The notes: generated from the letters alone by a model not told the origin. 64,000 nucleotides of DNA from Trypanosoma brucei (GCA_000002445.1 CP000070.1:928001-992000), one strand, 5' to 3'. Counted from the stretch's first letter, positions 1,347 to 49,311 are shown. Numbers and translations are program-made.

Positions 1347-1439
1347 TATTTGTTGCTACCCTCCCCCACCACAATAATAACAGCAATGATACCGCCACAA
1401 CTCCTCTACCCTTTTATATCACGGGAGGCAACTACTTAG

Positions 1440-1480
1440 CAATGGGAAAAGAAGCATAAGGAAACGAAAGAGGCAAAAAC
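1440..1480 (-). promoter_or_regulatory. candidate polypyrimidine tract and AG trans-splice acceptor for the gene starting at 1346
   Basis: The plus strand at 1440-1480 is purine-rich (aatgggaaaagaagcataaggaaacgaaagagg), so the minus strand is pyrimidine-rich. AG dinucleotides follow on the minus strand at about 1430-1436, roughly 90-130 nt upstream of the ATG. This is the typical kinetoplastid spliced-leader acceptor arrangement. I infer it from composition only. Confidence 0.3.
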
Positions 1481-4400: not shown

Positions 4401-5092
4401 ACAACATCCGCTCGTGGTCTCGTTCACTCCTATTCTTTATTCTCTTTATTTATTTATTTTCTTTAATGCACGTCTGTTTGCATTGATACCAGTGACAGCA
4501 TTCGGCATATCCTCACTTTCCTTCGCATCACCTCCTGAAAGCGCACAACATTGAAAGCATACAGTAAACAAGGGCACATCTCATGAAGATAAAACGCGGA
4601 GAATTGTGAGAAGGAAAAAGAAAAAGAAAAAGAAACAAAAACAAAAACAAAAACAAAAAAGATAAGAAAGAGCAGCAACGACAAAGCACATGAAAGTGAT
4701 CATGGCACACACACACACATATATAAACATACATCCTCCTCCTCTCCTTCCCTCTGCATCAAAAAGTTTCAACTACCCAAATTACACACACAACTAACGT
4801 CCTCCACAACACCTAACCTATCTATTTCATTGTACACAATCCATACGAGTCGCAACTGAGGGGTGGAGCCATGTAAAAAAAAAAACTACTACAACAGCGG
4901 CACCATATTCCTTTACTTACACCGCGTACTCACTGAGACTACTAATGACAGCAATTACAAAATAATAATAACAATAACAACAACACCCAACACGTAACCA
5001 ATGAGATGAGACGAAATGCAGATATTACTATTCTCCTCTTTCCTCCCATGCTACACACACACAAATACACGAATGCACAGACACATGTATGT

Positions 5093-18155: not shown

Positions 18156-20080
18156 TTCCTTCCTGCCTTTCTGACTATCTCCCCTGAGGCCGCTGTTTCT
18201 GTTTGATTTCTCTCTTTTTCTATATTTTTTTATATTTTGTATTTCTCTTCAGTGAGGTGGAAGTGTCGTCAGCCGTAATTGTTGACTGGAGAAGGGACAA
18301 GTGGATCTTCTCCCTGCCGCGTGTTCCCTCAAATCCGCTACCCTTCTCTAGGTTTCCCTTAGCTGTTGCTTTTTACACCTGTAAATAAATATGTGCAGGT
18401 TTGCCTTCTTTTGCTTCCTCGCCTGTTTCTGTTCTCCGCTAACTCTCAGTTTTAATAGTATTTGCAATAATATTGGTAGTGGTAAGAACCAAACAAAGAA
18501 AGTTCCTCCTTGAGGCCTGGGAAATATACCCCAGTGTCTCGGTGTGGTTTTTGCTTGCTGTTTCCAACTCTCCAAAGTAATATTTCCGCCCTCCACTTCC
18601 TCCCGGCACACCGCCACGCTTCAGGCCCGGGAAGGCAGCCGGTAATCTCCCCAGTGAATGAGTAAAAACAAAAAAAAATCCAAAAGAAATTCAAGAAAAG
18701 AAAAGTGTGAAGAGAAAAGATAAAGGAAGGGACAAAGGAAGGAAAATACAGTATGAAATTCCCTACTCCGACAAAGTCGAATGCCTCACAAGTACGCAGT
18801 TGGTCAAGCATCCAAACGAAATTGTGCCTTACTCATTGCGACGCCTCGCATCCTCCAAATACGCACACACACACACACCTGCATATCACCTCTTACGGGA
18901 ATGCAGATGCCGTATTTGCATCAAACATGAAAGGAAAACACCACTCCAACCAATTTTATGTAAAAATTCACCTCCGCATTGGGGTGGTAACAAAATCCCT
19001 GAGTAGTTGAGCAACTGCAAAAGAAATCAGACCCCTTTTGTACGAACGATACTTGAAGTTTGTGATATGGACAGACAAGTGTGATGTTTAGGCAATCAGT
19101 ATTACATCCGAGGGTTAGTCGTGAACACACATCAACACACACACACAAAAAAAAAAAAAAATAGTGTTATCCATGTTATTAACCAATGCAGCAGTAACGA
19201 TCTCCGTAACTAAACCAGAAGCCCTCAACCCAGGCCCACAGTTAGGGCCAAACCGCTGCAATGAAGGCACGGACAGAAGCAGATAGCACCGTGAATTCAA
19301 CAAACATACACACACGCTTACATGACTATGAAAAATATTAACCACATACTTATATATATATGTATACGGATGCGTTTGATCATTTTCGCACCCAAACGTG
19401 AGTCGCCTCCCTTCGCTTCTGCAGTTGTCATCGGTGATGTTTTTCCGATAGATTTGCCTCTCTAGCGGTGCTCAGAGGAAACGTATAAATGGAGTTTCCT
19501 CATAAGAGGGAGCGTGTGAGAGCTCATCTTCCAGGAAGGCACACCAGCGTAATTTGTGCCGGGTGATAACTTCATTTCCGTGTAGCCTTGCGTATTCCCT
19601 TTTGGCAACCAACGCTTCCAAAGATGCCAGCAGTATCCTCGTGTGATTTAAGCAGCTGAATGTGCGTTTGAAGTGAACACAACCAGCTACCTTTTCAAAT
19701 AACCTCGCGACCACGCAGATTCAGTTGGATCGGGGGAGGAGGGTGGGGGAATCAAATGTGGAGGTGATGAGAACAATAATTTTTAGAGTTAAAAATTCAA
19801 CGATAACGCGGTGAGACACGTGCAAACGGGTATATGAATGCACACATGCACAAATGTACATATCCATATGTGTGTATACCTACAGTTCTGAAGGTGAGGT
19901 ATTTTAAAGCTTTCACATTCATCACACTCAGTATTGCTGGAAAGGTAATCATCTTCCTATTACGGTGTAGTAGTAGAATCACTTAAATGAATAGCGACGT
20001 GGGGAAGGCTACCACACATTGGTCACCTGCACCACCTCCTGCTCAGCAGAGGGAAAGTGAGATTAAAAAAAAAAATGCAC

Positions 20081-21136: not shown

Positions 21137-21150
21137 CGTTCCCGTCTTCG

Positions 21151-21220
21151 TATATATATATATATATATATATATATCTTATTTTTCGTTCACTCACCCT
21201 CACCCTCACCCTCACCCCTC
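21151..21220. repeat. (TA)13 microsatellite followed by a (CACCCT)4 hexamer repeat
   Basis: I read tatatatatatatatatatatatatat at 21151-21177 and cactcaccctcaccctcaccctcacccctc at 21191-21220. Confidence 0.9.
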
Positions 21221-22759
21221 TTTCTTTCTCTTTCCCCCCACAACCTCCGACGATAGCTTCCTATTTTTTTTTCCTCTCAACGTGCTGCTGTGGTCACACG
21301 AAGCCAGATGAAGTAGTGGAATCAACGGGAAACAACAACAGAATAAAGTGGTCGAAAGAATCATATGTATTTACATTAGATGAATTCTCCTTGCCACGCG
21401 AGCCGCGCACCCTCCTTTCTTCCTCCCTGTCTATTTCCGTTTCAAAATGTTAGGCTGCTGTGAGAGGCACAATTCCACAGTCTGTTATAATCCCCCTTTT
21501 CTCTGAGGGACAAAACATACAAAAGGATGACATTGGGATAAGGCACTTTTCCCACCTAAAAAAGGTGCACGCCCCTTCCCTGTTCATTCTGTAGCGTCCC
21601 TCCACACATGTATGGGACACGATACGTATGTATATATAAATATATAAATAATTATAAAGAAGGTGGAGGAGAAGGGAAAAAAAAGGGAAAAAGAGGATTT
21701 TCTCCAGCTTGACGCTACAAGTGAAAAAACGGGCTCCTCCATCCCTTTTCTTCTCCCTTATATTTGGACCTTTCAGTGGGCATTACATCGATGAACGGTA
21801 GCATTCACGCTCCATCATCATAGGAAGCTTTTCACTCTTTACGGGAACAAAGGCAGCTTCATTTCCGTGTGTCATCATCCCTTAAGCACTTCAGGTCGCG
21901 GTTATCGTTGGAAAACATTAATTCGCATTTGAAGGAGGGAATAATGAAATAATTAACAAAGGAAAGAAAGGGAAGAAAAGAGAAGAAGAGGAGTGAAGAG
22001 GGTGCAAAACTGCTCATGGTATTCTGCACAACAGATGCCGCACTCGGGTGATCAGTCATTTGAGCAGTCACAAGTGACCAAGTGAGAACGAGCTCATGAA
22101 AAGAAGTGAGAGAGGTATAATAAAAAGAAAAAAATGAAAAAAATGAAAAAAAAGAAAAAAGAGACAAACACAAACATACAGACAAAGTCGAATACCGAGA
22201 GAAAAGGAAAGAAATGGTCGTCGTCGTTGTTGTTAATATATATACTTTTTTTTTCTGCACAGGGTGGTAAGGACGTTTAAATAATGAAAAAGAAAACACA
22301 AAAAAAAAAATTACAATAAAAAAATGGGATGGGAAGTAAGGCACATAATGAACAACCGGAGTTATCACCTCTAAGAATGGATCAATAAACCGAAGTTTTC
22401 TTAAGAAAAAAAAAAAGAAAATAGGAAAACAGGAAAAAGGAAAAAGGAAAAAAAGTACGCATGAGGTTTCCTAGCCCTCCACCTTAGCAGTCATCCACAA
22501 CAATACAAATACGCGGAAGAGACTATAAAGCAAAATTAAAGAAAAAAAACTACAAAACAAAGAAAACAAAAGGTGCGACAACCGCCGAGTAGATGGATAC
22601 ATATGTATATGTATACATGTATATATGTATATGAGTGGATGATTGGATGGTTTTGTGTGTGGAAAGGAAATGTCTGCTGCATGCGATGGTTTTGTCTTCT
22701 CTTCGCTTTCTCATAATCAAATGCACTCATGCGATCACCCGTTCATCCATGCACACATG

Positions 22760-22792
<33 letters not shown>

Positions 22793-23053
22793 TGATCCAT
22801 CTAAACAACTGACTTTTACCCCCAAACCGCGTGGATGACCCCGTACGTTTCCTCAGAGGCACTTCCAGCTGGTAGTAATAATATTACAACCACTCGCACC
22901 ACCAACATCACCCACTTTGATCTTAAATGCCCTCTTTTCTTACTTTAAAAAAAAACGCAAGAGAGGAGCATTTCAGGACTTAATTACTTCCCTTTTTTGA
23001 TACTGCTTCAGCCTCTTTTGCCTTTTCTTTTCTTTTCCCTTTTTTTTCCACCC

Positions 23054-33865: not shown

Positions 33866-34927
33866 AAAAAGAAAAAAAGGTTCCGTCAAGGGATAAAGGA
33901 GGGAGGATTATATATGAGACAAGTTGCAAAGTAAGCACAGCGATAATAATTAAAAAAAAAAAAGAAGTAACGTAGAGGGGAACAAACTGGTGGAGTGGAG
34001 GGCATACAATAAGGAAGCATCGAGGAAAAAGAAACAAAAAACAACAAAAACAACAAAAAGAAGTGACTCCAAAAGTGGAAAAAAACAAAACAGCAACGAA
34101 ACCCCACGAGCAACAGCAAATGAGTATATGCATAAATGTACACATATACATAAATATACTGGACCTTCTGCTTGGCGAGGCGGTTACCCATACTTACACA
34201 GTGGATTGTGTGCCAATTTAATGACACTTATTTACGAGGTGAAATAAAAGGAAAAACAAGCACGAAAGTGTTTTACGTGTTTGTATTTGAGAGAAGAGAG
34301 GTGATCCGGGCGCGAGGGGAATGAACACAATAGAAACGGAAAGAACAAAAAAAAAAGGATATGAAAGTAAAAACTTTAGCTCACACACAAGCACACATGT
34401 GTATACGTGTATATGCGTGTCAGCGTACTCTCCGTGCTCACCACGGCATGAGAAAAAGAAAAGGAAAGAAAAAAAAACAGTCTTTCCTTCCCTTAATTTC
34501 ATATCATATTCCTCAATTAAACACCGCAGTTAGTGGGAAATTTGTATCATGTGTGTTCACAACAAATTAGATTCATAACCTCCTGCCTCAAATTTTATGG
34601 AAAAATAATGCGACGCCTTCGCACCTTCCATGTTTATTCGCTGCTAACCGCCGCCCCCATGTGTATTTTTTTCCCCCGTCCCCCACAAATCCCTATTTCT
34701 CTCTTACATTCTGGAGCATACAAATGAGAGAAAAAAAAAGGAAAAGAAAAGAAAAGAAAAAAAATTAAAGGAAAGGAAAAAAAAAAAAAGAGATCACCGT
34801 ACTCCTCTGTATTTCTTGTAAGGTAACACGGGCACAATCAACCGTCCAGTAGTGATATGTTGCTCTCAATTTCAGAAAAAAAAAACACATACACACACAA
34901 ACACAAACAAACAAAAAAAGAAAAGAA

Positions 34928-34966
34928 AATGATAAAAAAAATGATAAAAAAAATGATAAAAAAATG
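34928..34966. repeat. tandem repeat of the 12-13-mer aatgataaaaaaa, 3 copies
   Basis: I read aaatgataaaaaaaatgataaaaaaaatgataaaaaaatg directly from the sequence. Confidence 0.8.
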
Positions 34967-36704
34967 AAAAGATAAATAATTTTTTGTACAAAAATGGAGG
35001 GTGATGATAGTGGTAACATAATAATAACAATAATAGTGATGATGATGATAATAATAATAATGGTAAAAGGGGTGGTAGTAATTCCAATTCCTGAAGGAAG
35101 CTGGGAGATAAAGAAGGAATCTCCAGTGGAAACAATAATAAGGGGGAAAAAAACAAGAAAGAAAGAAAGAAAAAAACGAAAAAGGAAGAGAAGAAAAGAT
35201 TTCAATACAAACCTTTCCAAACATTCCCTTCGTTTCTGCATATTTCTCTTTGTTTTACTGCTATTGTCTCCTCCTCCTCCTCCTCATACATTTACACACA
35301 AACATGCCCCGAGTGATTGTTTTCAACTGTAAATACTCACGGTTTTGATCACACAACATCGGTACAATCCTCAGAGGAGGGGGGGATTTCTCCTTCCATT
35401 CATTCTTCCTTTCCGCTTTTTATTTATTTCTTTTTCATTTTTTTTTCTTTTCCTCCCCTTCTTCACTTCCTGAGTTTTGTCTCTACCAAAGAACAGGTGT
35501 GCTGTAAACGTTAGTTGGTTTAATCTTTTTATTTCTTCTTTTTTTTTTGTTTCTTTATGCATAAGTACAAATGAAATTATGAACGTGCACTTACTATATA
35601 TGTAAATATATATATATATGTATATGTATATTATTTATTTACTCACTTACTTATATGGATACAAATTCTCCCTTTCATTATCACTCTTGCATTTTCTTTC
35701 TCTCCAAACACCGTTTGGTATTGTTGTTATTGTTATTATTATTATTATTATTGTTGTTGTTGTTTTTTACTATTTTTTTTTTTAAATTATCATTACTACC
35801 CGTTATTATTACCTCCCACCCTTTCTGTCTATTTGACTTTTTGTTTTTTTTCTTTTTATTTCTTTCTTTTTTTTTTTACCTTACTTTTGTGGCTCATTCG
35901 TTTCACACCCATTACGTACGAACATATATACACACAAAAACAAAAACAAAAACAAACAAACAAATTCTCTCTACATCCTAACAGGCCTTTTTTTCCCCCC
36001 TTTTTTTTTCTTTATTATTACTATTATTTTTGAGCCCCCGCCCAACCGACTGCTTAATGTGGTAAATAAAACTGTGTCAAGCAAAGCCACTTGTTACATT
36101 TCCGTCTCCTCTACGCACCGCAATAACTAAATAAAACAACAACATTTTTAAAAAAAAAGAAAAGAAGAAAAGATGATACATAAGTAAGGGAAGGAGAAAG
36201 AAATCTGGGGAAAATACACAGGATATTGTCACTGTGACTGCCATTCTTTTTTCTTTTTTAAAGGAAAAAAAAAAGGAAGTAGAAGCCTCACATCAAGTTG
36301 TGATCGCCCTCCATTCCTCTCCCTTTTTTTTTCTTTTTTTTTCAAAAAAAAAAATTTATTTCCTCCCCTGTGAACTTCCCACTCTTTTCTTTTCCCTCTC
36401 CCTTTTTTTCCCCCCCCCCAATCATTAGCGTACAGATAGAAAGCGAACAAAAGAAAAAAAAAGAGACAAGAAGAAAGACCGAGCACACATACAAGCAAAA
36501 AAAAAAAAAAAAATCACATATACACTCACACTCACACTCACACACGCACGAGTACAGACATTTTTTTTTCCCTTCCTCCTCCCTCACGCACACACTATTC
36601 AATTTGATATGCGCCAGCTCACATGTTTTTTTTTTCAATTAATTGCTTCTGCTTTTTGCTTTTGGGTTTCCTCCTCCAGTACTCCTGGTAGTTTTTTTGT
36701 TACC

Positions 36705-38382: not shown

Positions 38383-39801
38383 TTACGAAGGTACATCCAA
38401 AAACAACCTTCGCAATGTGCAAAACGATGGACTCTGCTGGCAACATCGAGTGCCAAAAACGGGCTCCTCCTCTAAAAACTGCAACACCTCCGACAGACGA
38501 CGTGCCATTAAAGACTCCGAAACATCACCATCAATTCCAACATTCCCACGAATATCACCCGATGACCCGCTACGGCTTCCCGTCACCTTTCCGGCAAGGT
38601 CTTGTAAAAAGAACGAACCACCCGCAACACGTTGGACGTCACCAAAGGCGCGCAGTGCTCTCGTTACAACACTTAAACTGGGCACGTCTCGTTTCTTTTC
38701 ACCATCGAGCAGTCGCTCAACCAATGGCCTCAATGTCCTTTCTAATAAAAGTGAGGTAACCTCCTGACGAGGGATAGGTGGAGCTACACCACGAATGCAA
38801 CGACAGAGTGAGATGATGCGGTGAAACAATATTTCACTTTGACACTCTCCATCCACAGCTGGGGATGTGGTTTTCGATATGATGTGCTGCAATTCCGTTG
38901 TGCAACAATTAAGGAGATCCTGAAGTGCGCCGGCGGTGTAACCATCAACCAGGGCCAAAACTTCAGTGGCACTGAACATCGGTAAACGCCGGCACTGCTG
39001 CTTAATCCACATATAGTTATTGATAAAAACACACAGTACATCAACCGAGTTTGGAAGTGTAGAGGCCTGGACCTGAAGTTTATTATTGTTCTCCACCATT
39101 GCCACGAAACAATCACTGATGATATGCAACAACGGGTGCGGCTTTGAGCTATGATGTGCGTCCCCTTCTTCACCAAACTCAATGCAGTTCACAACAAAAC
39201 TCAGCAGCCGCACAACCACCTCCCAAACCAAAACAACTACCGATAACATCGGCTGGAGTTCCTCTCCCTCAATGTGATGCCACCGCAACCGCACAGTGGG
39301 GGACTGAAAGCCATCGGTTGCTTCACGAATTAAACAAACCAACAAGCTCCCGAGGCGGCACCACGAAACCCCTTCGACCCATGAGGGAAGGTCCCGGCAT
39401 TCATGGGAAGAAGTGAGAAAAGGAAGAGCCTCAGCGGTTATTAGGTTAAACGCCGTTAGCGCAGTGCCTTCAACTAACGGGGTTGTATCCTCCATGGAAT
39501 GGACTTCGCCGCCGTCTTCAGTTGTTGTTGTTGTTGTTGCTGCTGCTGCTGCTAACACTGCCTTCAAGTATGTGGCAAATATCGTAGAAACGCGGTCAAA
39601 CACATCGTCCAGGATATCGCTAATGCGTGATTCATCCGCTGCTTCAGTAAGTTTCCGGAGGAAAGGACCGCAGTCCTCAGGTAACTTATTGCTACAGCTC
39701 GTCACGAGCAATTTCCCCTCAAGACGCTTTAACACTTGATCAATGAGCCCGCAATGATTAGTGTTACTCATTATAGCGGTAGCCCCCGCACCGTCGTGCA
39801 T
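38383..39801 (-). CDS. hypothetical protein (472 aa) with a poly-Ala/poly-Thr tract
   Basis: The ATG at 39801 is verified. It is a long ORF with normal composition. It contains AAAAATTTTTT, encoded by a (GCA)n(ACA)n repeat (plus 39521-39553). I recognised no motif. Confidence 0.75.
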   Translation of the reverse strand: MHDGAGATAIMSNTNHCGLIDQVLKRLEGKLLVTSCSNKLPEDCGPFLRKLTEAADESRISDILDDVFDRVSTIFATYLKAVLAAAAATTTTTTEDGGEVHSMEDTTPLVEGTALTAFNLITAEALPFLTSSHECRDLPSWVEGVSWCRLGSLLVCLIREATDGFQSPTVRLRWHHIEGEELQPMLSVVVLVWEVVVRLLSFVVNCIEFGEEGDAHHSSKPHPLLHIISDCFVAMVENNNKLQVQASTLPNSVDVLCVFINNYMWIKQQCRRLPMFSATEVLALVDGYTAGALQDLLNCCTTELQHIISKTTSPAVDGECQSEILFHRIISLCRCIRGVAPPIPRQEVTSLLLERTLRPLVERLLDGEKKRDVPSLSVVTRALRAFGDVQRVAGGSFFLQDLAGKVTGSRSGSSGDIRGNVGIDGDVSESLMARRLSEVLQFLEEEPVFGTRCCQQSPSFCTLRRLFLDVPS

Positions 39802-40054
39802 ATTTCGCCCCTCTCTTTACCGCGCTGTTGTGTGCCGGCGCCGTTGTACTTTTTTTCCCTTTCCACGGAAGAAATAAGTTACCGTCCCCTCTTTTTTTCT
39901 CTCTTCTCCAAGTCAACTCCTTCTTCAATTACCCCTCTATGTTCGTCCCTCCAACAGCAAATATATTGTTACAGTGAAGCGACTGATAGGTGAAAGGAAT
40001 TAAGGCATTGTAATAATAGACAAACGGAGGGAAAAATAAAGAAATAAATAACAG

Positions 40055-40081
40055 GGTGTGTGTGTGTGTGTGTGTGTGTGG
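40055..40081. repeat. (GT)13 microsatellite
   Basis: I read ggtgtgtgtgtgtgtgtgtgtgtgtgg directly from the sequence. Confidence 0.9.
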
Positions 40082-42513
40082 CAAGGAGTAATTTACATAT
40101 GATGAAGAAGCTCGTCACAAGACAAACATAAGGGTATTGAAAAGGTTTCGAATAAGAAAAAAAAAACTGTGTGCGAGTCATCACTCCCACTTTGGAAATG
40201 TTACACTTGCTTTTGAACAGCCCATTACTGCGAAGGTATAACCATTAAGACGCAATGCGTCGAAGTTTCCGGGCAAAGAACCCCACATCAAACGTAATTG
40301 TCTTGGAAACCTTCCGCAAGTTTCCCTTAGATGCTTCCTTTCAGAACAGAAAAATAAAAAAAAGAAAGGAGGAGAGCGGGTTGTTCCTCATTCTTCCCCA
40401 CATCTCGCTTTTCTTCACTCTCCTCAAAAAAGAAAAGTAAAGAAATTTCCCTCACTTCTATTTCCATGTGACCTGCCGTGTTACATTCATTCATTCTTTC
40501 TTTTTTTTTTTGTTTTCTTCCTCTGCCAGGTGAATCAAAGACACGAGCCGCCAAGTGAAAGTAACGCATGCGGAGCGGGGGCAAAAGGTGCGGCCAAAAA
40601 CAAATTTACACACAAGTTCACAAACGGATAAGTAAAAGACAAAGACGCAATCGAAAGAAGCGACACCGAAAAAAAAAAACAACTTTGAAATAATGAATAA
40701 CAAAAATATGGAAAAAGAAGTGGATGGTCCGTTTTTTTTAATTTTTTTTTCTCAAGGAGGGAACAAATAATCCAACAAAACAAATCGGGGAAGTTTGGAA
40801 CTATCCAACAAAGAAAAAAACATCAGGAACACGAAAAGATAAAACAAAAGTAAAAATATAAGGATAAATGGTTCCATTTACCCACACTCACACACAAACA
40901 CAAACAAACAAACAAACAAACAGAAGCGGGTGCGCACACACACGCATGCAGATATTCTAATAATCACAACGGCCACATAAGTTAATTACAATAGTCACAT
41001 TTTATTATCGTTTTTGTCATCGGTCCCAAGGCACAACCACCTTCTTGCTGACCTTTTTTTTTTGGCTTTTTTGCCATTTATTTTGTTCCCTTTTACCACA
41101 ACCACCTTCATTATTATAACCACTATTACAATTGTCACTATTATTATTATTATTATTATTTTCAGCGTCATTACCATTTGCTTTCGTTATTATCATCATG
41201 TGACACACACACACACACTCTCTCTCTCTCTCTCTCACTCACACTCACACTCACATTCTCTTGTATATTTGTACCTTTATTGTTTATTTTATTTTATTTA
41301 TTTTTTTTTCTAATTATGGTTTTCTACCTTTCCTAACTCTCTTCCCTCCCATCACTTTCTACCGCTTCCCCGTCGTAAGTCTCCGCGGCTACGCAGGATG
41401 AACCCACTTTATAATATATAAATATAAATAAATATATACAAATGTGAGAGTCGAAACATTAAAAACATCTCTTTACCCGTCATTTTTCTCCTCTTGTGTT
41501 TGCCCTTTCCATAAAAATTACCTCTCATCCCTTCTATCAATGTATCAATATTATATATATGTATATATATATATATAATATAATATAATATATCCCATTT
41601 TACCCCTTTGTTTCCCCTCTGTTTCTGTAAGCGCAGGAATCATAGTAAGTGATAAGTATGATGATAATGATAATGATAATAATGTGACAATGAGAGGAAT
41701 AATAACAATAAGAATGACCAATAATAAGGACAATAAGAATGGTAATAATGATTATGATTGTGGTTGTAGGGATAATGATGATAATAATAATAATAAGCTC
41801 AGGCGCTCACACGCCGCATTCCGCATCGTCAACACCGATAAACGCCTTATTGCTCTCCTTTTTTTCTCCTCCTTCTTTTTTTTTTCCTTAAGCTCTCTCC
41901 AATTCATTCATCATCACCACTTCACTTCAAACATACTTTAAATATATACACAGGTGTGTGCACGCGCATATACATATACACATATGTATATGCATATATA
42001 TGTACATACATGTAAGCCAACGGTGGTAATAATGACAATAATAATAATAATAATATCAATATTAATAACAATAATAATAATAGTGTTACTGGCAACACAA
42101 AACACACCAGCGCTTCCGTTGCAAACTCACACACTTATTCACCCGATCACATACCAACACAACTTATTTCGCCCCCTTCTTTTATTCATTCTTTTCTCTT
42201 CCATATATCTCCTTCCTTCTCTTTCTCTTTTTTTTAAAAAAAAAATCTCCTAAAACGCAGAAATGCGTGTGCATCCATCCGTTTATATTTATTTAGTCGC
42301 TCGCACCGACCTTGCCGGGTTGTTTTTTTTTTTCTCCTTTCCAGTTTGTATCGCTATTCGCTTCTCTTCCCCTCTCGTCTAATGGCATCTCATTTGTGTT
42401 TTATCATATTCTTCCGTGTTTATTTTTGTTGGGGTTGCTGTTACTCTTTTTTTTTTTTCCTTCCTTTCCTTTTTTTTTTCTCCTCCCCCAATTTTAATTG
42501 CCTTCATATACAC

Positions 42514-42550
<37 letters not shown>

Positions 42551-43923
42551 AATGCGTCAAATTCCACTTCCGCTGACCTCTATCAAAATAAACACGAAAA
42601 GAAAAAAAAGAAAAGAAAAGAAAAAAAGAAAATGAAAACATAATTAAAGCCACCATAATAACTATAATAATGACTGAAATTAAGAAGAAAAAAAAAGCAT
42701 AAGAAGAGGAACTGCAGGACCGGCGTGTGCTACCGTACTGCACGTCAATAAAATAATAAAATTTAAAATTTAAAATAATAATAATATAATAATAACAATA
42801 AAAAAAAAGCAGCAAACTGGCTGTGCGGTGTGGTGTTGTGTTGTGAGGCGCGTGAAAGTTATTTAACAGGTACGAAGGAGCGGGGAAGAGATAATGCACA
42901 TCAGCATGTGAAGTATTTTCATATGGAAACGAAGCGAAATGAAACCGAAAAGAAAAAAAAAGTGGCGGAGGGGAAAAACAAACAAACAAACAAACAAAAA
43001 AAAAAACACACACACACACAAGGAAAAAAAAAATTACCACCACCACCAACAACAACAACGAAAAGGAAAAAGAAAAAAAAGAAAAGAAGAATCAATGCAT
43101 ATGTGTTAAAGTAAACAAGTCGTGATAACAGTAATAGTAATAATCATAATCATAACATGCCACTCAGGAAACACATACACAAATAAACAGAAAGAAGAAA
43201 AAGACAAAACGAACCAAAAATATGGGGACGACAGTAACAGTAAAAAAAAAAGGAAAGAATTAACAGTAACTATTGCAGTGGCAAAAGTTACTTCCTTTTC
43301 TTTTTTTTTCCTTTTTCTTTATATTGTTTGTTTGCTTTCTCATCTGTTTTAATTTTCATCCTTTACTGATTATTACGAGCAAAAGGAAAAAAACAAAAAA
43401 AAACAGAAATCTCTTAACCCTTTCACTGAGGAACGAAGGGATTACACCAGTTGACATAAATTTGTTTGACATAAAAGTTAGAAAACGAAAAAAAAAATCA
43501 CAACGAATGTGGGAAACGACACTTGTGAGGCAGGCAAGAGCAAGAACGCAAGCATCTCCACAAATCAACGGAAAAGATAATTCTTTTTTTTTTTAAAGAA
43601 AGATAGCATATATATATACATATATATATATGAGATCTTTCTTTCACTCCTTCACATATTCAATTTGTTCTTATTATTCATTTATTATTACCGTTTCCTT
43701 TTATTTCCCTTCATTACCATAAGTGGCCCAACAAATACAAATCAAATTAAATTATACATAAGTATATGTAAATATAAATATGCATATATAGATATAAGAA
43801 CCCAAGTATGATATGAAAGGACAAACCCAAAACTGAAGAAAACAAGCGAAAACAACAAAAATTGAAATGATAAACAAAAGGAAAGGAAAATACATACACA
43901 TACCTCATAATCCGATCATCAAT

Positions 43924-43966
43924 GAATACATACATATATATATATAATATATATATGTATGTATTC
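43924..43966. repeat. near-perfect 43-bp AT-rich palindrome (inverted repeat with about 20-bp arms)
   Basis: I read gaatacatacatatatatatataatatatatatgtatgtattc. Its reverse complement is identical except at the central 2-3 nt. Confidence 0.8.
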
Positions 43967-46900
43967 ATTTACTTATATATAGATACATATATTTACACAA
44001 GTATAATAATGAATGATAATGTTAACAACAAAAAACAGTGAGGGAATGATAATGATGATGGTAATATTACTAGTAATAATGAATCATAATCAAAACGGCA
44101 GTGAATGCGATTACGATTGTTCTGAAGGGGGAAAAGTTGGATAAGAAGAGATAAATAATCACGCAAACACATACGAAAAACAGGGACACACATACAGAGG
44201 GAAAGAGCAACAGGATCAAAATAAACCAATGGAAAATAATGGAAACAAATTATAAAAATGTTGTACTAACACCCTACCATCATTATGATCATCACAATGG
44301 CGATAATCAACACAATAAAGGGACGGTTCTGGCAAAAAAAACAAAAGAAGTGTATATATGAATAAATAAATATGAATACATACGAATATTTACTTATAAA
44401 TATGCGTGTTCTTTTTCTTTTTTTTTTTTTAATATGGAGTGTGTGTGCAGTGCAATGGCAATGACATGTCCGTGGCCGCCAGTAATATTTTGTGAAATTC
44501 AACAAAACCGAAACAAAAGTGAGGGAATGGGACGCGAAACCGGAATCGGAGGAATATGGTAGTAAAAACAGAACGGAACAAACAAACAAACAAACTCTTA
44601 AATGAATGGGCAAGTGCACGAAATCAACAACAATGATGACAGCATTGAAAAAATTGTAAGAAAAGAAACAAAAAAAAAGTGGTTGATTCCGTCTTCGAAG
44701 AGGTGGAAAGAAAACAAAACATGAAAGCACAAAAACATAAAAACAGGTGGAAGTGAAGAGATGAAGGAGTGGAAGTGGAAAATAAAATTTAAAAACGCAC
44801 AAACCATCATGTAAAAAAAAAAAAATACAAAGAACCGGAATGAAGAAAAGAAAGACACAATGGAGAAGAGAGAGAGAGGGGGAAAAAAAGACAAAGCGGA
44901 TGGAAACAACAAGTCGCCTTGTGTCATCCCTTTCACATTTTCAGTTGTTGTTTTTTCTTTTCATTGGTTTTTTTTTCCTCTCAGCCTAATCGTGTCGTTT
45001 TTTTTTTGCTTTTGATTTCCGCCAACCAGCCACATCAATTTTCTTCCACCTCCTCATCACCGTATTCGGTCCCATTATATTCACACACTTCCAGTTCGTT
45101 TTGTTTTAATTAATCTTGTTCATACATAAATATATAAAACACGCGTACTCGCATTCCATATCTACCAATACACCCACGCCAAAGGGCACATAAATATTTT
45201 TAATCATAAATATTCGCCCTGTTTTTGTCCAACACATCATTCATTGCATTACGTAATGCCATTAACATTCTTCGCATGTCTCCTTCACAGCATTCTTATT
45301 CTCCTTCACTTCCCCTTTTTATTTATTTATTTATTTCCTTTTCAGAAGAACAAACAACACAAAAAAAGATGTTTCATCACTCTTTTTTTTTTTTTTGGTC
45401 CTCTTTCATCCTAACCCTCCGTTTTTCTACCCTCTCCCTTTTTAATTTCCCCCACTTTCCTCCTCTTCACTAATTTCTAAATATTAGTCTCATCATTACA
45501 GGCGAAATTCAAAAGGAAAAAAAACAGCAAAACGCACATTTTTTGTCCATTTTTATCAATCGCCTCCTCATATCATTTCCTCAAATTCTTTACAGCGTTT
45601 ATGCGTGCAGAATAGATAAAAATGAAGGGATCAAATATTGAAATTGAGGCGAAGTGGCAGAAAAAAAAAAGGAGGGGGAGAGTCGAGAAAAAAGAAAGAA
45701 AAAAACAAAAGAAGACTGAAAATTTTTTTTCTTTTTTAAACAAAAACCATGTACAAAAAGGAAAAAAGAAAACAACGCCAATAGCAAGCAAATTAATAAT
45801 GATAATAAGAACCGCCATTGCTGATATTATTATTATTATTATAACAGTAATAATAATAATAAGCTGCATAACAATTGAAGATGCGCCTTACAGCCACTCA
45901 TCTCTTACTTTTCATACACGCCACATTCCTCTTCCACTACTGTGCGGTGGTTTATTCCTCTTGTATTTCTCCTCACATCTTTTATTTATCTTATGTTTTC
46001 CTTTTTTTTTTTTTCGTCCTTGCTTCTCCTCCTTTTTCCCTTGCTTCAAGTCTTTTTTTTAAAAAAAAATTATTATTATTGTTATTATTTCCTCTAACGC
46101 TTTTTTCTCCTCTTTTCTCGACAAATGCAACAGCGAAAAAGACGACGATCATTACCAGAGCAACAACAATAATAATAATAATAATAACACCACAAATACA
46201 CGAAGTGTTTAAATACCAAAATGCAATAAATATTGTTGGGAAGGTCCAGAACCCTTTAACAAAAGAAAACAAAAAATCACCTTTACGTATAAATTTAAAC
46301 ATGCAAATGTACACGTATATAATTGCTTTCTTATTCTTTCTCATTTTATTCATTCACTCTTCCTCCAGTCCCCCTTTCTTCCCCAGCGTTGTGCAACACA
46401 TTAAACAAAAACAAAAGAAACAAAAAAAACAAAAAACAAAAATAAAACAGAAATAAAAGTGGCTGTAGAATCAGCTAATGTGAAGTTAAGCAAGCTGTAT
46501 TATAACGGATACGAAAGCAAGATAAAATAAGACAATCGGAGGGAAAGTGAGGCGAGGACAGAAAAAAACAAAAACAAAAACAAAAAGGAAAAGGAAATTA
46601 GGGGAGTTGCGCCGCATGTTTTGATTATTCCTTTTTTTTCTTAAAAAAAAAACTGAAAAAAATGCTTTGATTCCATTCATTTTCTTTCAGCAACGACCTC
46701 CAACTTCCACCATATTCCGGGCGACAGATGAAGTAAAAGAAAAAAAAAAGAAAGATGACAAATAATAAAGAAAAGAGGAAACCAGTGGAAGAGCATAAGA
46801 ATAATTACAATAAGTGTAGGAAAAAGAAACAAAAACAAAAACAAGAATAGCATCTTCCTTCCTTCCTTCTGTTTGCATTATTGGTGTTGTTCCCATTCGT

Positions 46901-48288
46901 GTCTCACCAATCGCACATAATTCATTTTATATTACACTATATCATATGTATATATGTATATACACCTATGTACTAAATTTAAATACGAACATGCATTCCT
47001 CCACATTTTTTATATTTTTTTTAAAAAAATTTTTACGGGCTCTGCTCATTTATTTCCTTCCTATTGTTCTTCTCGCTCGATTGCATCTTTCAAAAATATA
47101 GGGAACGCCATGCATTTCAACGTCAGCAAAAAAAAAATTCTTCTTTTCTTTCTCTTTGGCACCTGAAGACCCACTGAGATAACAAAGGAAAATAACTGCG
47201 ATGAACCAAGCAGATTAATGAAAAGAAAAAAAAAGGATCATAAAAAAATGATGATAATGACGGGAATAATGTTACTAATACTAATGATCGTGTCCACGCA
47301 AGGAGAAACGAAAAAAAAAAAATGGACAAGGGAACGGAAGAAAAGAAAAAGGAAAAGGTCAACGACGAAAAAAACTGGCAAAAAAGATAATGATGGTAAC
47401 AAAAAAAAACCGAGGGCACTGTTCACTTCTTCACAAGTAATGTGTACCAGCGCGTGATAATTTGGCGGAGAGGGGGGAGGAAAAAAAAAAATGATTTAAA
47501 GGGGGGAAAACAAAAAGCGACAACAAAAGCCACCCAAAACAAAAGCTTGGGGGAAGGGGGATTTGAACAAAACAAGCAAAGCAAAGGGGGAAAGACATAA
47601 AATCTGGTAGAATAGAAAGAAAAAAAAAGGAGAAAGGAAGACAAACAGAAGAACGCAGAGCTACGAAAGACAATGAGTCTGCGCACAGACAGAAGACGGC
47701 AGCGGGCACATAGTAAATAAACCAATGCAAAAACCCGCTTGTGCCTTTCCCACTGAGAGGGTCACCAGAAACGGCACACGAAAACATACGAAATGAGAGG
47801 AAGTACGACAAAAAGAACACATGAAACAAAGAAAAATGCCATAAACATGTGGGGGCCTTCCAGGACGCGGGGAGCAAACAAAGGGGAATACACGAAAGAA
47901 AATGGAGGAGAAAAAGGGCAAACGACTCCGGTAATCCAAAATGGTATGGTGTACGCTGCGCGTCACTCCTTTTCTTTTCTTTTCTCCACTCCAAACCCTT
48001 TTATTTCCATCATTCTCGCATTTACTTCGTCAGTTTCACTCCCCACGCACGGACACAAATATACACGCACACACCTCCCAGTCCTAAGGATAAATTGACG
48101 ATCATCATCTCACAATCCCTAACAAAGACGACGTTGGTGGTAAAAACAAAAGACGACAGCAACAACAGATACACCAACTCCATTAAACGGTGGTCATCTC
48201 CTTTCAAAGACAAGTCTTCCCTACACCATAAGTACTCACAGGTGGACACGAGCAGCCCGCCACTCCTCATTTTGCAACCAATGATGGT

Positions 48289-49311
48289 TTAGTTTGGGCT
48301 CATGAAGTTGGTGGTTCCGATCATCCGAGTCGTCGGGCTACTGAGAGCCGCGCCGCAAAGGCTGCCGGTGGTTGGGTCCGAAGCACCCAGGGGTGTAAAA
48401 AAGGACGAAACGCTGCCCTGAAGGATTCCGTCTCGCACCGGATTAAGAGGCATGTATGACTGAAAGCAAAGCGGCTCCATAGTCTTGGACGAAGGATGGT
48501 ACTGCTCGGGTTGAGTTGCTGAATTCGACTGTTGTACCCGCGGAATAGTCATCGCCGGAACTGGTTGGGTTGTCATGCTTAAGACGCTTAACTCCATGGG
48601 GCTGCTGCTTCCACAAGTTTTTATGTTGCCAGTAACGATGCCACCTGTGTCACCCTCACTAAGCACTACCGGCGGCTGTATTGTTGAGAGTGCCGGGGCC
48701 CAACTAGCTGGCACCGTTTGCACAAACTGCTGATTGCCTACGGGAGCCGCCATAATGCCGGGCGCTGCTTGTATCATATGCATACGACCTCTGTCCACAA
48801 GTGCGAATGTGGCAGGGTGATGCACTGTCGTTTCTTGCGGCCGCGCCATTGCTGTTAGTACGCTGTTTCTTGAGTCGAATGGGTGTACAATGGGGCAGGG
48901 GACAAGGCTCGAGGTAGTCAAGGAGATTTGCTCCACAGCACCATCGCCGAAGCACGGCCCGCTCACTTTGGGTGGAGCAGAGCCCGGTGGTGCTCTCGGC
49001 CCTGGCTGACGCACGGATGTTGAACCTGCTGCCTGTGAGTACTTCCTGGGCCCAGTGGCTTGCGTGACACGAAGACGCTTATTGTTAATCGAGTATCCAT
49101 TCATCCGCGACATCGCGTTCATCGCGGACTCTACAAACTTGTAACGAACGAATCCGTATCCTTTAGGGTGATTTCCGTTCTCGCGGTCGCATATGATACG
49201 AACAGAAACTAATGGTCCAAAAGGTCTAAACAGCTCCTCAAGGTCTTCCTCCGTCACAGGGGTTGGGATGTAATTAACAATGAGATTGCGCGGATCCTGG
49301 TGCGTTTCCAT
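48289..49311 (-). CDS. RNA-binding protein with a single N-terminal RRM and a Q/P/S/T/A/M-rich low-complexity C-terminus
   Basis: The ATG at 49311 is verified. The RRM has RNP2 LIVNYIP and RNP1 KGYGFVRY, within NLIVNYIPTPVTEEDLEELFRPFGPLVSVRIICDRENGNHPKGYGFVRYKFVESAMNAMSRMNGYSINNKRLRVTQA. The remaining 240 aa are low complexity. I cannot say by eye which trypanosome RBP this is. Confidence 0.85.
   Translation of the reverse strand: METHQDPRNLIVNYIPTPVTEEDLEELFRPFGPLVSVRIICDRENGNHPKGYGFVRYKFVESAMNAMSRMNGYSINNKRLRVTQATGPRKYSQAAGSTSVRQPGPRAPPGSAPPKVSGPCFGDGAVEQISLTTSSLVPCPIVHPFDSRNSVLTAMARPQETTVHHPATFALVDRGRMHMIQAAPGIMAAPVGNQQFVQTVPASWAPALSTIQPPVVLSEGDTGGIVTGNIKTCGSSSPMELSVLSMTTQPVPAMTIPRVQQSNSATQPEQYHPSSKTMEPLCFQSYMPLNPVRDGILQGSVSSFFTPLGASDPTTGSLCGAALSSPTTRMIGTTNFMSPN

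What the first reader, a model, noticed from the sequence alone, without database searches (positions are those of the whole stretch)
39802..49311. About 8.5 kb of gene-free low-complexity DNA directly downstream of a single-RRM RNA-binding-protein gene: candidate ultra-long regulatory 3'UTR
Every other spacer in this window is 0.3-3.7 kb. Downstream of the RRM gene (stop at 48289), 8.5 kb pass before the next ATG at 39801, and they contain no ORF with protein-like composition. In T. brucei, mRNAs for regulatory RNA-binding proteins are known to carry exceptionally long 3'UTRs packed with stage-specific control elements; RBP10's 3'UTR is reported at about 7 kb. A developmentally regulated RBP whose own mRNA is the target of dense post-transcriptional control would fit this layout. 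Alternatively, the region could hide unannotated non-coding RNAs such as a snoRNA cluster. I could not convincingly identify C/D or H/ACA boxes by eye.
Basis: partly seen in the sequence, partly recalled or inferred. Interest (0 to 1): 0.55.

Follow-up and report, generated by a model that had tools for sequence, protein, structure and literature searches.

The report
Long 3' tail of trypanosome RBP26

Summary
8,487 bp separate the stop of the RRM gene (48289) from the next ATG (39801). The other spacers between ORFs of at least 200 aa in the window measure 0.19-2.8 kb.

The window is T. brucei chromosome 7 (window position = chromosome position - 928,000). The gene is RBP26 (Tb927.7.3730), not RBP10.

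The spacer holds no protein gene, tRNA, Rfam family or credible snoRNA. Its one annotated ORF, Tb927.7.3720, is low-complexity, frameshifted in sister strains, and listed as producing no detectable transcript.

Published poly(A) mapping in procyclic cells (Kolev 2010, Table S13) gives RBP26:
- a predominant 3'UTR of 3,478 nt
- an average of 3,980 nt
- a dispersion of 1,075 nt

No novel transcript is listed in the interval. A later annotation gives only 1,153 nt. The maximum possible 3'UTR is about 8.1-8.2 kb.

So a long, heterogeneous 3'UTR is supported. A single 8.5 kb UTR is not shown.

The spacer after this gene is the largest in its neighbourhood in every other species with a complete locus, from 2.1 kb in Angomonas to 11.4 kb in T. 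vivax. Its sequence is not conserved.

This is a known kind of feature at an annotated locus. Interest is low.

The parts
48289..49311 (-). Coding sequence of RBP26 (Tb927.7.3730): 340 aa, one N-terminal RRM and a poorly conserved low-complexity C-terminal part
   Evidence: ORF. Pfam RRM_1 only. 100% identical to XP_845996.1 / Q57WI8 of T. b. brucei TREU927. The gene number follows from synteny with PSS2 = Tb927.7.3760 and from a coordinate offset checked on four genes.
39802..48288 (-). Gene-free spacer between RBP26 and Tb927.7.3710: 8,487 bp, sense-strand U 37.6%, GC 34.5%
47136..48288 (-). The 3'UTR of RBP26 as annotated in Tb927 v5.1 (chr7:975136-976288, 1,153 nt)
   Evidence: Trenaman 2024 Supplementary Data 1. 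I infer these are UTR coordinates because each listed interval abuts a coding-sequence end exactly.
44811..44811 (-). Predominant poly(A) site of RBP26 mRNA in procyclic forms (chr7:972811; 3'UTR 3,478 nt). The averaged site is 972309 = window 44309 (3,980 nt); dispersion 1,075
   Evidence: Kolev 2010 Table S13.
44656..44900 (-). Cluster of sense-strand polypyrimidine tracts. The first AG after the tracts at 44782-44697 is at 44694-44693, 118 nt downstream of the predominant poly(A) site. This is a candidate internal trans-splice acceptor that would direct that site
   Evidence: The rule that poly(A) sites lie a median of 142 nt upstream of the next acceptor comes from Kolev 2010. Use of this acceptor is inferred, not shown.
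45881..46456 (+). Tb927.7.3720, an annotated 'hypothetical protein' ORF antisense to the transcription unit; judged spurious
   Evidence: It is listed in Kolev 2010 Table S2, 'annotated ORFs not producing a detectable transcript'. Codon log-odds are -0.47, and the ORF is 2 nt shorter (frameshifted) in both sister strains. No Pfam match above threshold.
40450..42590 (-). A 2.1 kb stretch with no sense-strand polypyrimidine tract. The sense strand is comparatively purine-rich here, most clearly at 41001-42000, with A runs and (AU)n, (GU)n and (AAU)n microsatellites
42506..42536 (.). The best-preserved (AT)n tract. The others are at 41548-41593, 43608-43631 and 43926-43992. These self-complementary repeats account for the strongest local folding signals
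   Evidence: (AU) repeats affected reporter expression in the RBP10 3'UTR (PMC8982893).
39983..40048 (-). Predicted trans-splice signal of the downstream gene: polypyrimidine tract 40048-40022 and AG at 39984-39983. It would place the most distal possible RBP26 poly(A) site near 40100-40200, giving a 3'UTR of about 8.1-8.2 kb
   Evidence: Inferred from the processing rule, not measured.
38383..39801 (-). Tb927.7.3710, a conserved hypothetical protein of 472 aa and the next real gene downstream
   Evidence: Orthologues sit at the same relative position in T. cruzi, T. melophagium, T. conorhini and T. vivax.

Best explanation
The window is Trypanosoma brucei chromosome 7, positions 928,001-992,000. 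It lies inside one polycistronic RNA polymerase II unit that reads the minus strand. The RRM gene is RBP26 (Tb927.7.3730).

The 8.5 kb behind it is the RBP26-Tb927.7.3710 intergenic region, which is transcribed as part of the polycistron. In trypanosomes a poly(A) site is set about 120-180 nt upstream of whichever polypyrimidine/AG acceptor is used next. The region carries 35 sense-strand polypyrimidine tracts, so RBP26 mRNA ends at several places.

Shown by published mapping: a predominant 3'UTR of about 3.5 kb and an average of about 4.0 kb, with a wide spread. A shorter form of about 1.15 kb is annotated.

Inferred: a full-length form of up to about 8.1-8.2 kb would arise if only the acceptor of Tb927.7.3710 is used.

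Also inferred, by analogy with RBP10: the long U-rich tail serves as a landing platform for many RNA-binding proteins, which set mRNA export, stability and translation through the life cycle. The reported associations and responses that fit this are:
- binding by TbRRM1, RBP10 and TbMex67
- changes in abundance after ZC3H20/21 knock-down and after RBP6 induction

A long tail would also keep the mRNA scarce.
For: Identity and position:
- The protein is 100% identical to the TREU927 protein.
- Gene order is YjeF-kinase / PSS / NIF / 849-aa protein / RRM, with PSS2 = Tb927.7.3760.
- The coordinate offset of 928,000 reproduces the stop codons of Tb927.7.3680.3700.3740 and .3750 from published UTR data.

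Published transcript mapping:
- Poly(A) sites lie 3.5-4.0 kb downstream, with dispersion 1,075.
- No novel transcript is listed between chr7:949,928 and 1,018,302.
- Tb927.7.3720 is listed as giving no detectable transcript.

Sequence context:
- The predominant site at 44811 sits 118 nt upstream of a polypyrimidine/AG signal.

Nothing else is hidden there:
- No coding potential.
- No tRNA and no Rfam family.
- No repeat shared with the rest of the window.

Comparative evidence. The spacer after the orthologous gene is the largest in its neighbourhood in every other species with a complete locus:
- Angomonas deanei 2,128 bp
- T. conorhini 2,918 bp
- T. melophagium 3,201 bp
- T. cruzi 3,901 bp
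- T. b. gambiense 8,433 bp
- T. vivax 11,407 bp

Regulatory context from the literature:
- RBP26 mRNA is the most enriched transcript in TbRRM1 RIP-seq, at 95x, with RBP10 at 58x (PMC4453557).
- It is 2.5x enriched with RBP10 (PMC5568443 S2 Table).
- It is enriched with TbMex67 and rises after RBP6 induction (PMC12774637).
- It rises after ZC3H20/21 RNAi (bioRxiv 10.1101/646547).
- It is higher in bloodstream forms.
Against: - The mapped poly(A) sites cover less than half of the spacer. A later annotation gives only 1,153 nt.
- I could not access RNA-seq, Northern or long-read data for bloodstream forms, where the mRNA is most abundant.
- The sequence is not conserved between species. Within T. 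brucei it evolves faster than the flanking genes, at 12-14 against 2-7 substitutions per kb, with about 8 indel events per kb. Much of it may therefore be under little constraint.
- Only one UA(U)6 motif is present, so direct control through the RBP10 motif is not obvious.
- No reporter test of this UTR turned up in the library searched.
Confidence: 0.8

Rival explanations
1. Split use. Only the proximal 1-4 kb is the RBP26 3'UTR. The distal 4.5 kb or so (about 44693 to about 40125) is released as a separate spliced-leader-capped, polyadenylated non-coding RNA. This RNA could be a by-product of alternative processing or could have a function of its own.
For: - The predominant poly(A) site at 44811 is followed 118 nt later by a polypyrimidine/AG signal that could act as an acceptor.
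- Kolev 2010 reports 394 genes with alternative 3'UTR processing that yields a shorter coding transcript plus a putative non-coding one.
- T. brucei has a catalogued set of long non-coding RNAs, one of which regulates differentiation (PMC9200285; title and abstract only).
Against: - No novel transcript is listed in this interval in Kolev Table S7, which covers procyclic forms. Tb7.NT.38 is absent from that table, so I could not place it.
- A dispersion of 1,075 nt implies that some RBP26 ends lie well beyond 4 kb.
- This rival is compatible with a minority full-length isoform, so it does not exclude the main explanation.
Confidence: 0.3
2. Mostly neutral DNA. The spacer has grown by microsatellite slippage and AT-rich drift in salivarian trypanosomes, and most of its length has no sequence-specific function. 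It is transcribed only because everything in the polycistron is.
For: - No nucleotide similarity to the T. vivax, T. cruzi or T. melophagium spacers beyond low complexity.
- High indel and substitution rates between sister strains.
- 85 overlapping Tandem Repeats Finder rows, all short microsatellite or low-complexity arrays.
- Composition and polypyrimidine density match those of other spacers.
Against: - The spacer after this gene is the largest in its neighbourhood in lineages as far apart as Angomonas and T. vivax. This argues that extra length here is retained, not accidental.
- The mRNA is a top target of several RNA-binding proteins.
- In RBP10, at least six regulatory segments are scattered over a UTR of similar composition (PMC8982893).
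Confidence: 0.25
3. The spacer hides small non-coding RNA genes such as a snoRNA cluster, or an unannotated protein gene.
For: - One C/D-box-like arrangement on the sense strand at 41917-41799.
- Databases annotate small ORFs here: Tb927.7.3720 in TREU927 and four ORFs in T. b. gambiense.
Against: - No Rfam family at gathering score in the whole window. At E <= 5 the only hits are AT-repeat hairpins resembling miRNA precursors and one snoR9 match at E = 4.4.
- No tRNA.
- No tandem unit longer than 28 bp in the Tandem Repeats Finder output.
- The C/D-like hit arises from an (AUG)n repeat, has a purine-rich interior, and forms no terminal stem in the predicted fold.
- The ORFs fail the codon-usage, frame-conservation and Pfam tests.
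Confidence: 0.04
4. The gap marks an internal boundary of transcription inside the gene array, where RNA polymerase II terminates and re-initiates.
For: None obtained here. The only grounds are that long gene-free gaps within same-strand arrays sometimes host such sites in T. brucei, which I state from general knowledge and did not test.
Against: - All genes on both sides are on the same strand, and gene order is conserved across trypanosomatids.
- There is no tRNA gene, a frequent companion of such sites.
- Poly(A) sites assigned to RBP26 lie 3.5-4 kb into the gap, so transcription continues at least that far.
Confidence: 0.04

Closest known systems
The 7.3 kb 3'UTR of T. brucei RBP10 mRNA (Tb927.8.2780; PMC8982893)
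   Same: - Both genes encode a single-RRM regulator that is more abundant in bloodstream forms.
- Both have a multi-kilobase, U-rich, low-complexity downstream region with (AU)n and poly(A) tracts.
- Both mRNAs are strongly enriched with TbRRM1 (RBP10 58x, RBP26 95x).
- The two proteins interact in yeast two-hybrid assays (PMC5568443).
   Different: - For RBP10, Northern blot and RNA-seq show one mRNA of about 8.5 kb, and reporter assays identified at least six regulatory segments.
- For RBP26, only poly(A) sites at 3.5-4 kb and an annotated 1.15 kb UTR are documented in what I could read. No functional dissection was found.
- RBP26 regulation is milder: about 2.3x at the mRNA level between bloodstream and procyclic forms.
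The 3'UTR of more than 5 kb of ZC3H22 mRNA (Tb927.7.2680; cited in PMC8982893)
   Same: It is another RNA-binding-protein gene on the same chromosome with a very long 3'UTR.
   Different: - ZC3H22 is procyclic-specific, and its UTR carries 9 UA(U)6 motifs.
- The RBP26 spacer carries one UA(U)6 motif.
Alternative 3'UTR processing that yields a coding and a non-coding transcript (Kolev 2010, 394 genes), and T. brucei long non-coding RNAs such as grumpy (PMC9200285)
   Same: An internal polypyrimidine/AG signal lies just downstream of the predominant poly(A) site. There are 4.6 kb of ORF-free sequence beyond it.
   Different: No separate transcript is listed for this interval. Whether RBP26 appears in Kolev's Table S3 could not be checked.
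CstF-64 (CSTF2 / Rna15), for which RBP26 was once listed as the best T. brucei match (PMC3287031)
   Same: Both have an N-terminal RRM. CstF-64 RRM structures match RBP26 at E of about 1e-16.
   Different: - PABP, Sex-lethal, TcUBP1 and HuR RRMs match better.
- Pfam finds only RRM_1, with no CstF-64 hinge or C-terminal domain.

Membership tests
Very long regulatory 3'UTRs of trypanosome RNA-binding-protein mRNAs (RBP10 type) | The upstream gene encodes an RNA-binding protein with stage-regulated expression | tested here: met
   RRM_1 at E = 2e-19. Identical to RBP26. Stage regulation is taken from the literature.
Very long regulatory 3'UTRs of trypanosome RNA-binding-protein mRNAs (RBP10 type) | Several kilobases downstream on the same strand, free of genes, within one polycistron | tested here: met
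   8,487 bp with no coding potential and no tRNA or Rfam hit. All genes in the window are on the minus strand.
Very long regulatory 3'UTRs of trypanosome RNA-binding-protein mRNAs (RBP10 type) | Poly(A) sites of the gene mapped kilobases from the stop codon | tested here: met
   Taken from published data, not measured here: predominant 3,478 nt, average 3,980 nt, dispersion 1,075 (Kolev 2010 Table S13). This is met for about 4 kb, not for the full 8.5 kb.
Very long regulatory 3'UTRs of trypanosome RNA-binding-protein mRNAs (RBP10 type) | A single mRNA species of matching length on a Northern blot or in long reads | not testable with these tools
   No expression data are available here. Fig 1A of PMC4453557 shows the RBP26 transcript, but figures are not held.
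Very long regulatory 3'UTRs of trypanosome RNA-binding-protein mRNAs (RBP10 type) | The 3'UTR is sufficient for stage-specific expression of a reporter | not testable with these tools
   This needs an experiment. No such experiment on RBP26 was found in the library.
snoRNA cluster | Matches to known snoRNA families, or C/D or H/ACA units arranged as a repeated cluster | tested here: not met
   No Rfam hit at gathering score; one snoR9 match at E = 4.4. One C/D-like hit, rejected on inspection. No tandem unit above 28 bp.
Protein-coding gene (Tb927.7.3720 and the other annotated small ORFs) | Codon usage like real genes, reading frame kept in sister strains, a transcript of its own | tested here: not met
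   Codon log-odds -0.47. The ORF is 2 nt shorter (frameshifted) in T. b. gambiense and T. b. equiperdum. Listed as producing no detectable transcript.
CstF-64 orthologue (identity of the RRM protein) | An RRM plus the CstF-64 hinge and C-terminal domains | tested here: not met
   Only RRM_1 is found in Pfam. The closest solved RRMs are PABP, Sxl, UBP1 and HuR, ahead of CstF-64.

The most novel reading that the evidence does not exclude
The distal 4.6 kb or so (about 44693 to about 40125) is released from the internal acceptor as a stable, spliced-leader-capped, polyadenylated long non-coding RNA with a regulatory role of its own. Choice between the 3.5 kb and about 8 kb RBP26 isoforms would then be a stage-regulated switch, for example under DRBD18 or TbRRM1. 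The retention of an oversized spacer from Angomonas to T. vivax would reflect selection on this arrangement.
Probability: 0.15. Interest if true: 0.5.

Novelty: already known. Interest (0 to 1): 0.2.

Why it matters
RBP26 belongs to a small set of bloodstream-enriched RNA-binding proteins and is a reported partner of the master regulator RBP10. How such regulators are themselves controlled is central to trypanosome differentiation.

The locus shows the general rule that regulators carry the longest 3'UTRs, but that rule is already established, and this gene's poly(A) sites were mapped in 2010.

Two points go beyond the papers I could read:
- The oversized spacer after this gene persists across trypanosomatids without sequence conservation, from 2.1 kb in Angomonas to 11.4 kb in T. 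vivax.
- The current annotation of 1.15 kb is much shorter than the mapped ends.

Both are useful notes for annotation and for anyone designing RBP26 reporter or tagging constructs. Neither opens a new question.

Tried and rejected
1. RBP10 identity. I first suspected the gene was RBP10 itself. This is rejected: the contig size, synteny with PSS2 (Tb927.7.3760) and the coordinate matches place it on chromosome 7 as Tb927.7.3730.

2. Hidden RNAs.
- The Rfam gathering scan of the whole window found nothing.
- The permissive scan of the spacer gave only AT-repeat 'miRNA' look-alikes.
- ARAGORN found nothing.
- My own C/D-box scan gave one hit, rejected on inspection and folding.
- A sliding-window folding scan flagged mainly (AU)n/(UAUG)n hairpins, plus one polypyrimidine/polypurine hairpin at 40342-40461.

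3. Hidden proteins. These fail the codon log-odds, entropy, frame-conservation and Pfam tests. The spacer shares no repeat with the rest of the window.

4. Conserved blocks between species. blastn of the spacer against the T. vivax, T. cruzi and T. melophagium spacers found only low-complexity matches. T. congolense contigs were not on record.

5. Other sources for the UTR length.
- The supplements of PMC8982893 and PMC4845500 held nothing usable.
- No supplements are held for PMC9380746 or PMC4453557.

6. RBP10-motif control. There is only one UA(U)6 in 8.5 kb.

Full report
**What is in the sequence**

The RRM ORF lies at 48289..49311 on the minus strand. It is 340 aa, and Pfam finds RRM_1 at residues 10-81 and nothing else. 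The next minus-strand ORF with normal protein composition is 38383..39801 (472 aa). Between them lie 8,487 bp (39802..48288).

The 18 other spacers between ORFs of at least 200 aa in the window measure 0.19-2.8 kb. GC is 0.28-0.40 across most of the spacer (overall 0.345), against about 0.45-0.55 in coding parts.

Simple repeats make up 12% of the spacer. That is within the 8-17% range of the other long spacers and far above the 1% seen in coding sequence. What is unusual is the length, not the composition.

**Where the window comes from**

The RRM protein is 100% identical to XP_845996.1 / Q57WI8 of T. brucei brucei TREU927 and to a T. equiperdum protein. In a T. equiperdum contig the genes upstream are an 849-aa protein, a NIF phosphatase, a phosphatidylserine synthase and a YjeF/carbohydrate kinase. 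T. brucei PSS2 is Tb927.7.3760, which makes the RRM gene Tb927.7.3730, known as RBP26.

Published coordinates fix the mapping. In Kolev 2010 Table S13, each predominant poly(A) coordinate plus its 3'UTR length gives the following stop positions:

| Gene | Stop on chr7 | Stop in window |
|---|---|---|
| Tb927.7.3680 | 961,287 | 33287 |
| Tb927.7.3730 | 976,289 | 48289 |
| Tb927.7.3740 | 978,815 | 50815 |
| Tb927.7.3750 | 982,009 | 54009 |

All four are exact with an offset of 928,000.

The gene is therefore RBP26, not RBP10 (Tb927.8.2780). The 3'UTR of RBP10 is indeed 7.3 kb.

**Is anything hidden in the spacer?**

Protein genes:
- All seven ATG ORFs of at least 90 aa have negative composition-corrected codon log-odds, from -0.15 to -0.76 per codon. 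Fourteen real genes in the window score +0.07 to +0.23.
- Their amino-acid entropy is lower than that of real genes.
- All seven differ in length by a non-multiple of three, or are cut short by an early stop, in T. b. gambiense DAL972 or T. b. equiperdum.
- No Pfam family reaches its threshold.
- The one ORF annotated in TREU927, Tb927.7.3720 (plus strand, 45881-46456), appears in Kolev's Table S2 of 'annotated ORFs not producing a detectable transcript'. The authors say such ORFs are often part of a neighbour's UTR.

RNA genes:
- No Rfam family reaches its gathering score anywhere in the window.
- A permissive scan of the spacer returns only AT-repeat hairpins that resemble miRNA precursors, plus one snoR9 match at E = 4.4.
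- No tRNA is found.
- A C/D-box scan gives one candidate, 41917-41799 on the minus strand. Its C box comes from an (AUG)n repeat, its interior is polypurine, and its ends do not pair in the predicted fold.
- The most strongly folding windows are mainly (AU)n/(UAUG)n microsatellites, plus one polypyrimidine/polypurine hairpin at 40342-40461.

Repeats and strain variation:
- No part of the spacer recurs elsewhere in the window.
- Between sister strains it carries 12-14 substitutions and about 8 indel events per kb. The flanking coding sequences carry 2-7 substitutions per kb and almost no indels; the single gap is one 3-column indel in the Tb927.7.3710 CDS against T. b. equiperdum.

The spacer is non-coding DNA.

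**What the literature says about transcripts here**

Kolev et al. 2010, working on procyclic forms, give these values for Tb927.7.3730:

| Measure | chr7 coordinate | Window position | 3'UTR length |
|---|---|---|---|
| Averaged poly(A) site | 972,309 | 44309 | 3,980 nt |
| Predominant poly(A) site | 972,811 | 44811 | 3,478 nt |

The dispersion is 1,075, one of the larger values in the part of the table I read.

Their list of novel trans-spliced, polyadenylated transcripts on chromosome 7 jumps from Tb7.NT.37 (949,387-949,928) to Tb7.NT.39 (1,018,302). None is listed inside the spacer. Tb7.NT.38 is absent from the table as held.

A later data table built on the Tb927 v5.1 annotation lists 975,136-976,288 for Tb927.7.3730. 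That interval abuts the stop codon, so I read it as an annotated 3'UTR of 1,153 nt (inference).

It is not met. The claim that all 8.5 kb form one UTR is not demonstrated either.

**Sequence context of the processing sites**

The sense strand carries 35 polypyrimidine tracts, or 4.1 per kb. The other long spacers have the same density.

The predominant poly(A) site at 44811 lies at the end of a U13 run. It is followed by pyrimidine tracts at 44782-44697 and an AG at 44694-44693, 118 nt away. This is close to the median site-to-acceptor distance of 142 nt, with an interquartile range of 123-178 nt. That fits an internal acceptor directing this site, but use of the acceptor is inferred.

The acceptor predicted for Tb927.7.3710 is a tract at 40048-40022 with an AG at 39984-39983. 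It would set the most distal RBP26 end near 40100-40200. That gives a 3'UTR of about 8.1-8.2 kb.

There is no sense-strand pyrimidine tract between 42590 and 40446. Any transcript that passes 42590 is therefore likely to run to the end.

**Comparative evidence**

Gene order around the RRM gene is conserved. The spacer that follows the gene measures:

| Species or strain | Spacer after the RRM gene |
|---|---|
| T. b. brucei (this window) | 8,487 bp |
| T. b. gambiense | 8,433 bp |
| T. b. equiperdum (L006) | 8,447 bp |
| T. vivax | 11,407 bp |
| T. cruzi | 3,901 bp (4,586 bp with gaps in a second assembly) |
| T. melophagium | 3,201 bp |
| T. conorhini | 2,918 bp |
| Angomonas deanei | 2,128 bp |

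The T. vivax figure was obtained by joining two overlapping loci from one contig. That spacer has no Ns, and its longest ATG ORF is 168 aa.

In each species this is the largest spacer in the stretch retrieved. The T. equiperdum and T. grayi assemblies break inside or just after it. There is no nucleotide similarity between these spacers beyond low complexity.

Extra length after this gene is thus an old and persistent trait that has greatly expanded in salivarian trypanosomes. The sequence itself turns over.

**Function**

The accessible literature supports the following:
- RBP26 mRNA is higher in bloodstream than in procyclic forms, by 2.3-2.4x.
- It is 15x higher in bloodstream than in salivary-gland forms.
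- It is lower in stumpy-like field isolates.
- It rises after ZC3H20/21 knock-down and after RBP6 induction.
- It is the most enriched mRNA in TbRRM1 RIP-seq, at 95x, ahead of RBP10 at 58x.
- It is 2.5x enriched in RBP10 pull-downs.
- It is enriched with TbMex67.

[quoted passage not shown] They also showed that the RBP10 UTR holds at least six independent regulatory segments and functional (AU) repeats.

By analogy, the RBP26 tail most likely works as a multi-protein binding platform and as a substrate for alternative end formation. This step is inferred, because no reporter work on RBP26 was found. The spacer has only one UA(U)6 motif, so RBP10 binding, if direct, would not rest on that motif.

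**Verdict**

A long (at least 3.5-4 kb), heterogeneous 3'UTR of a stage-regulated RNA-binding-protein gene is documented. A single 8.5 kb UTR is possible but unproven.
- The snoRNA and hidden-gene alternatives are not supported.
- The locus is annotated, the gene is named, its poly(A) sites were mapped in 2010, and the class of feature is well described. I therefore rate it as already known, with low interest.
- The main open point is the fate of the distal 4.5 kb.

Noticed in passing
window 33890-36704, with ORF 34765-35241 (-): This is a second long, low-GC (0.34) spacer. It is the 2,760-nt annotated 3'UTR of Tb927.7.3700, a 305-aa protein with a weak DEK_C match. It contains another annotated ORF, Tb927.7.3690, which Kolev 2010 also lists as giving no detectable transcript.
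   Followed up: partly
window 18794-19703 (-) and 21387-21928 (-): Kolev 2010 lists two novel trans-spliced, polyadenylated transcripts, Tb7.NT.36 and Tb7.NT.37, at these positions. They lie in the spacers 18156-20080 and 21137-23053, and no ORF of at least 200 aa lies there.
   Followed up: no
window 1-5092: A low-GC stretch (0.37-0.38 at 2001-5000) with no ORF above 132 aa lies downstream of the 596-aa gene at 5093-6883. It may be another 3'UTR of about 3.7 kb.
   Followed up: no
L001 (T. equiperdum) and L009 (T. grayi): Both draft assemblies break inside or just after the spacer that follows the RBP26 orthologue. The T. equiperdum contig ends 5.3 kb after the stop and has several N runs. 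The T. grayi contig ends 183 bp after the stop. The region is evidently hard to assemble.
   Followed up: partly
L007 11225-17592 (T. b. gambiense DAL972): The gambiense annotation calls four small ORFs (99, 118, 215 and 110 aa) inside the same spacer, none with a Pfam family. They are probably over-predictions like Tb927.7.3720.
   Followed up: partly
window 48289-49311 (-): Only the RRM of RBP26 is well conserved, at about 57-67% identity over roughly the first quarter of the protein in most trypanosomatids. The C-terminal 250 aa diverges fast: 42% identity overall to T. congolense and 38% to T. vivax. The Angomonas orthologue has only 190 aa. A 2012 survey listed this gene as the T. brucei CstF-64 match, but it has no hinge or C-terminal CstF-64 domain.
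   Followed up: partly
window 41799-41917 (-): This is a C/D-box-like arrangement: GUGAUGA, then 119 nt, then CUGA, with a possible 4-5 bp terminal pairing. It derives from an (AUG)n repeat, has a polypurine interior, and shows no terminal stem in the predicted fold. I judged it a chance match.
   Followed up: yes
L005 10001-11308 (T. melophagium): The RBP26 orthologue is annotated at 435 aa, against 310-340 aa in other trypanosomes. This is possibly an over-extended N-terminus.
   Followed up: no
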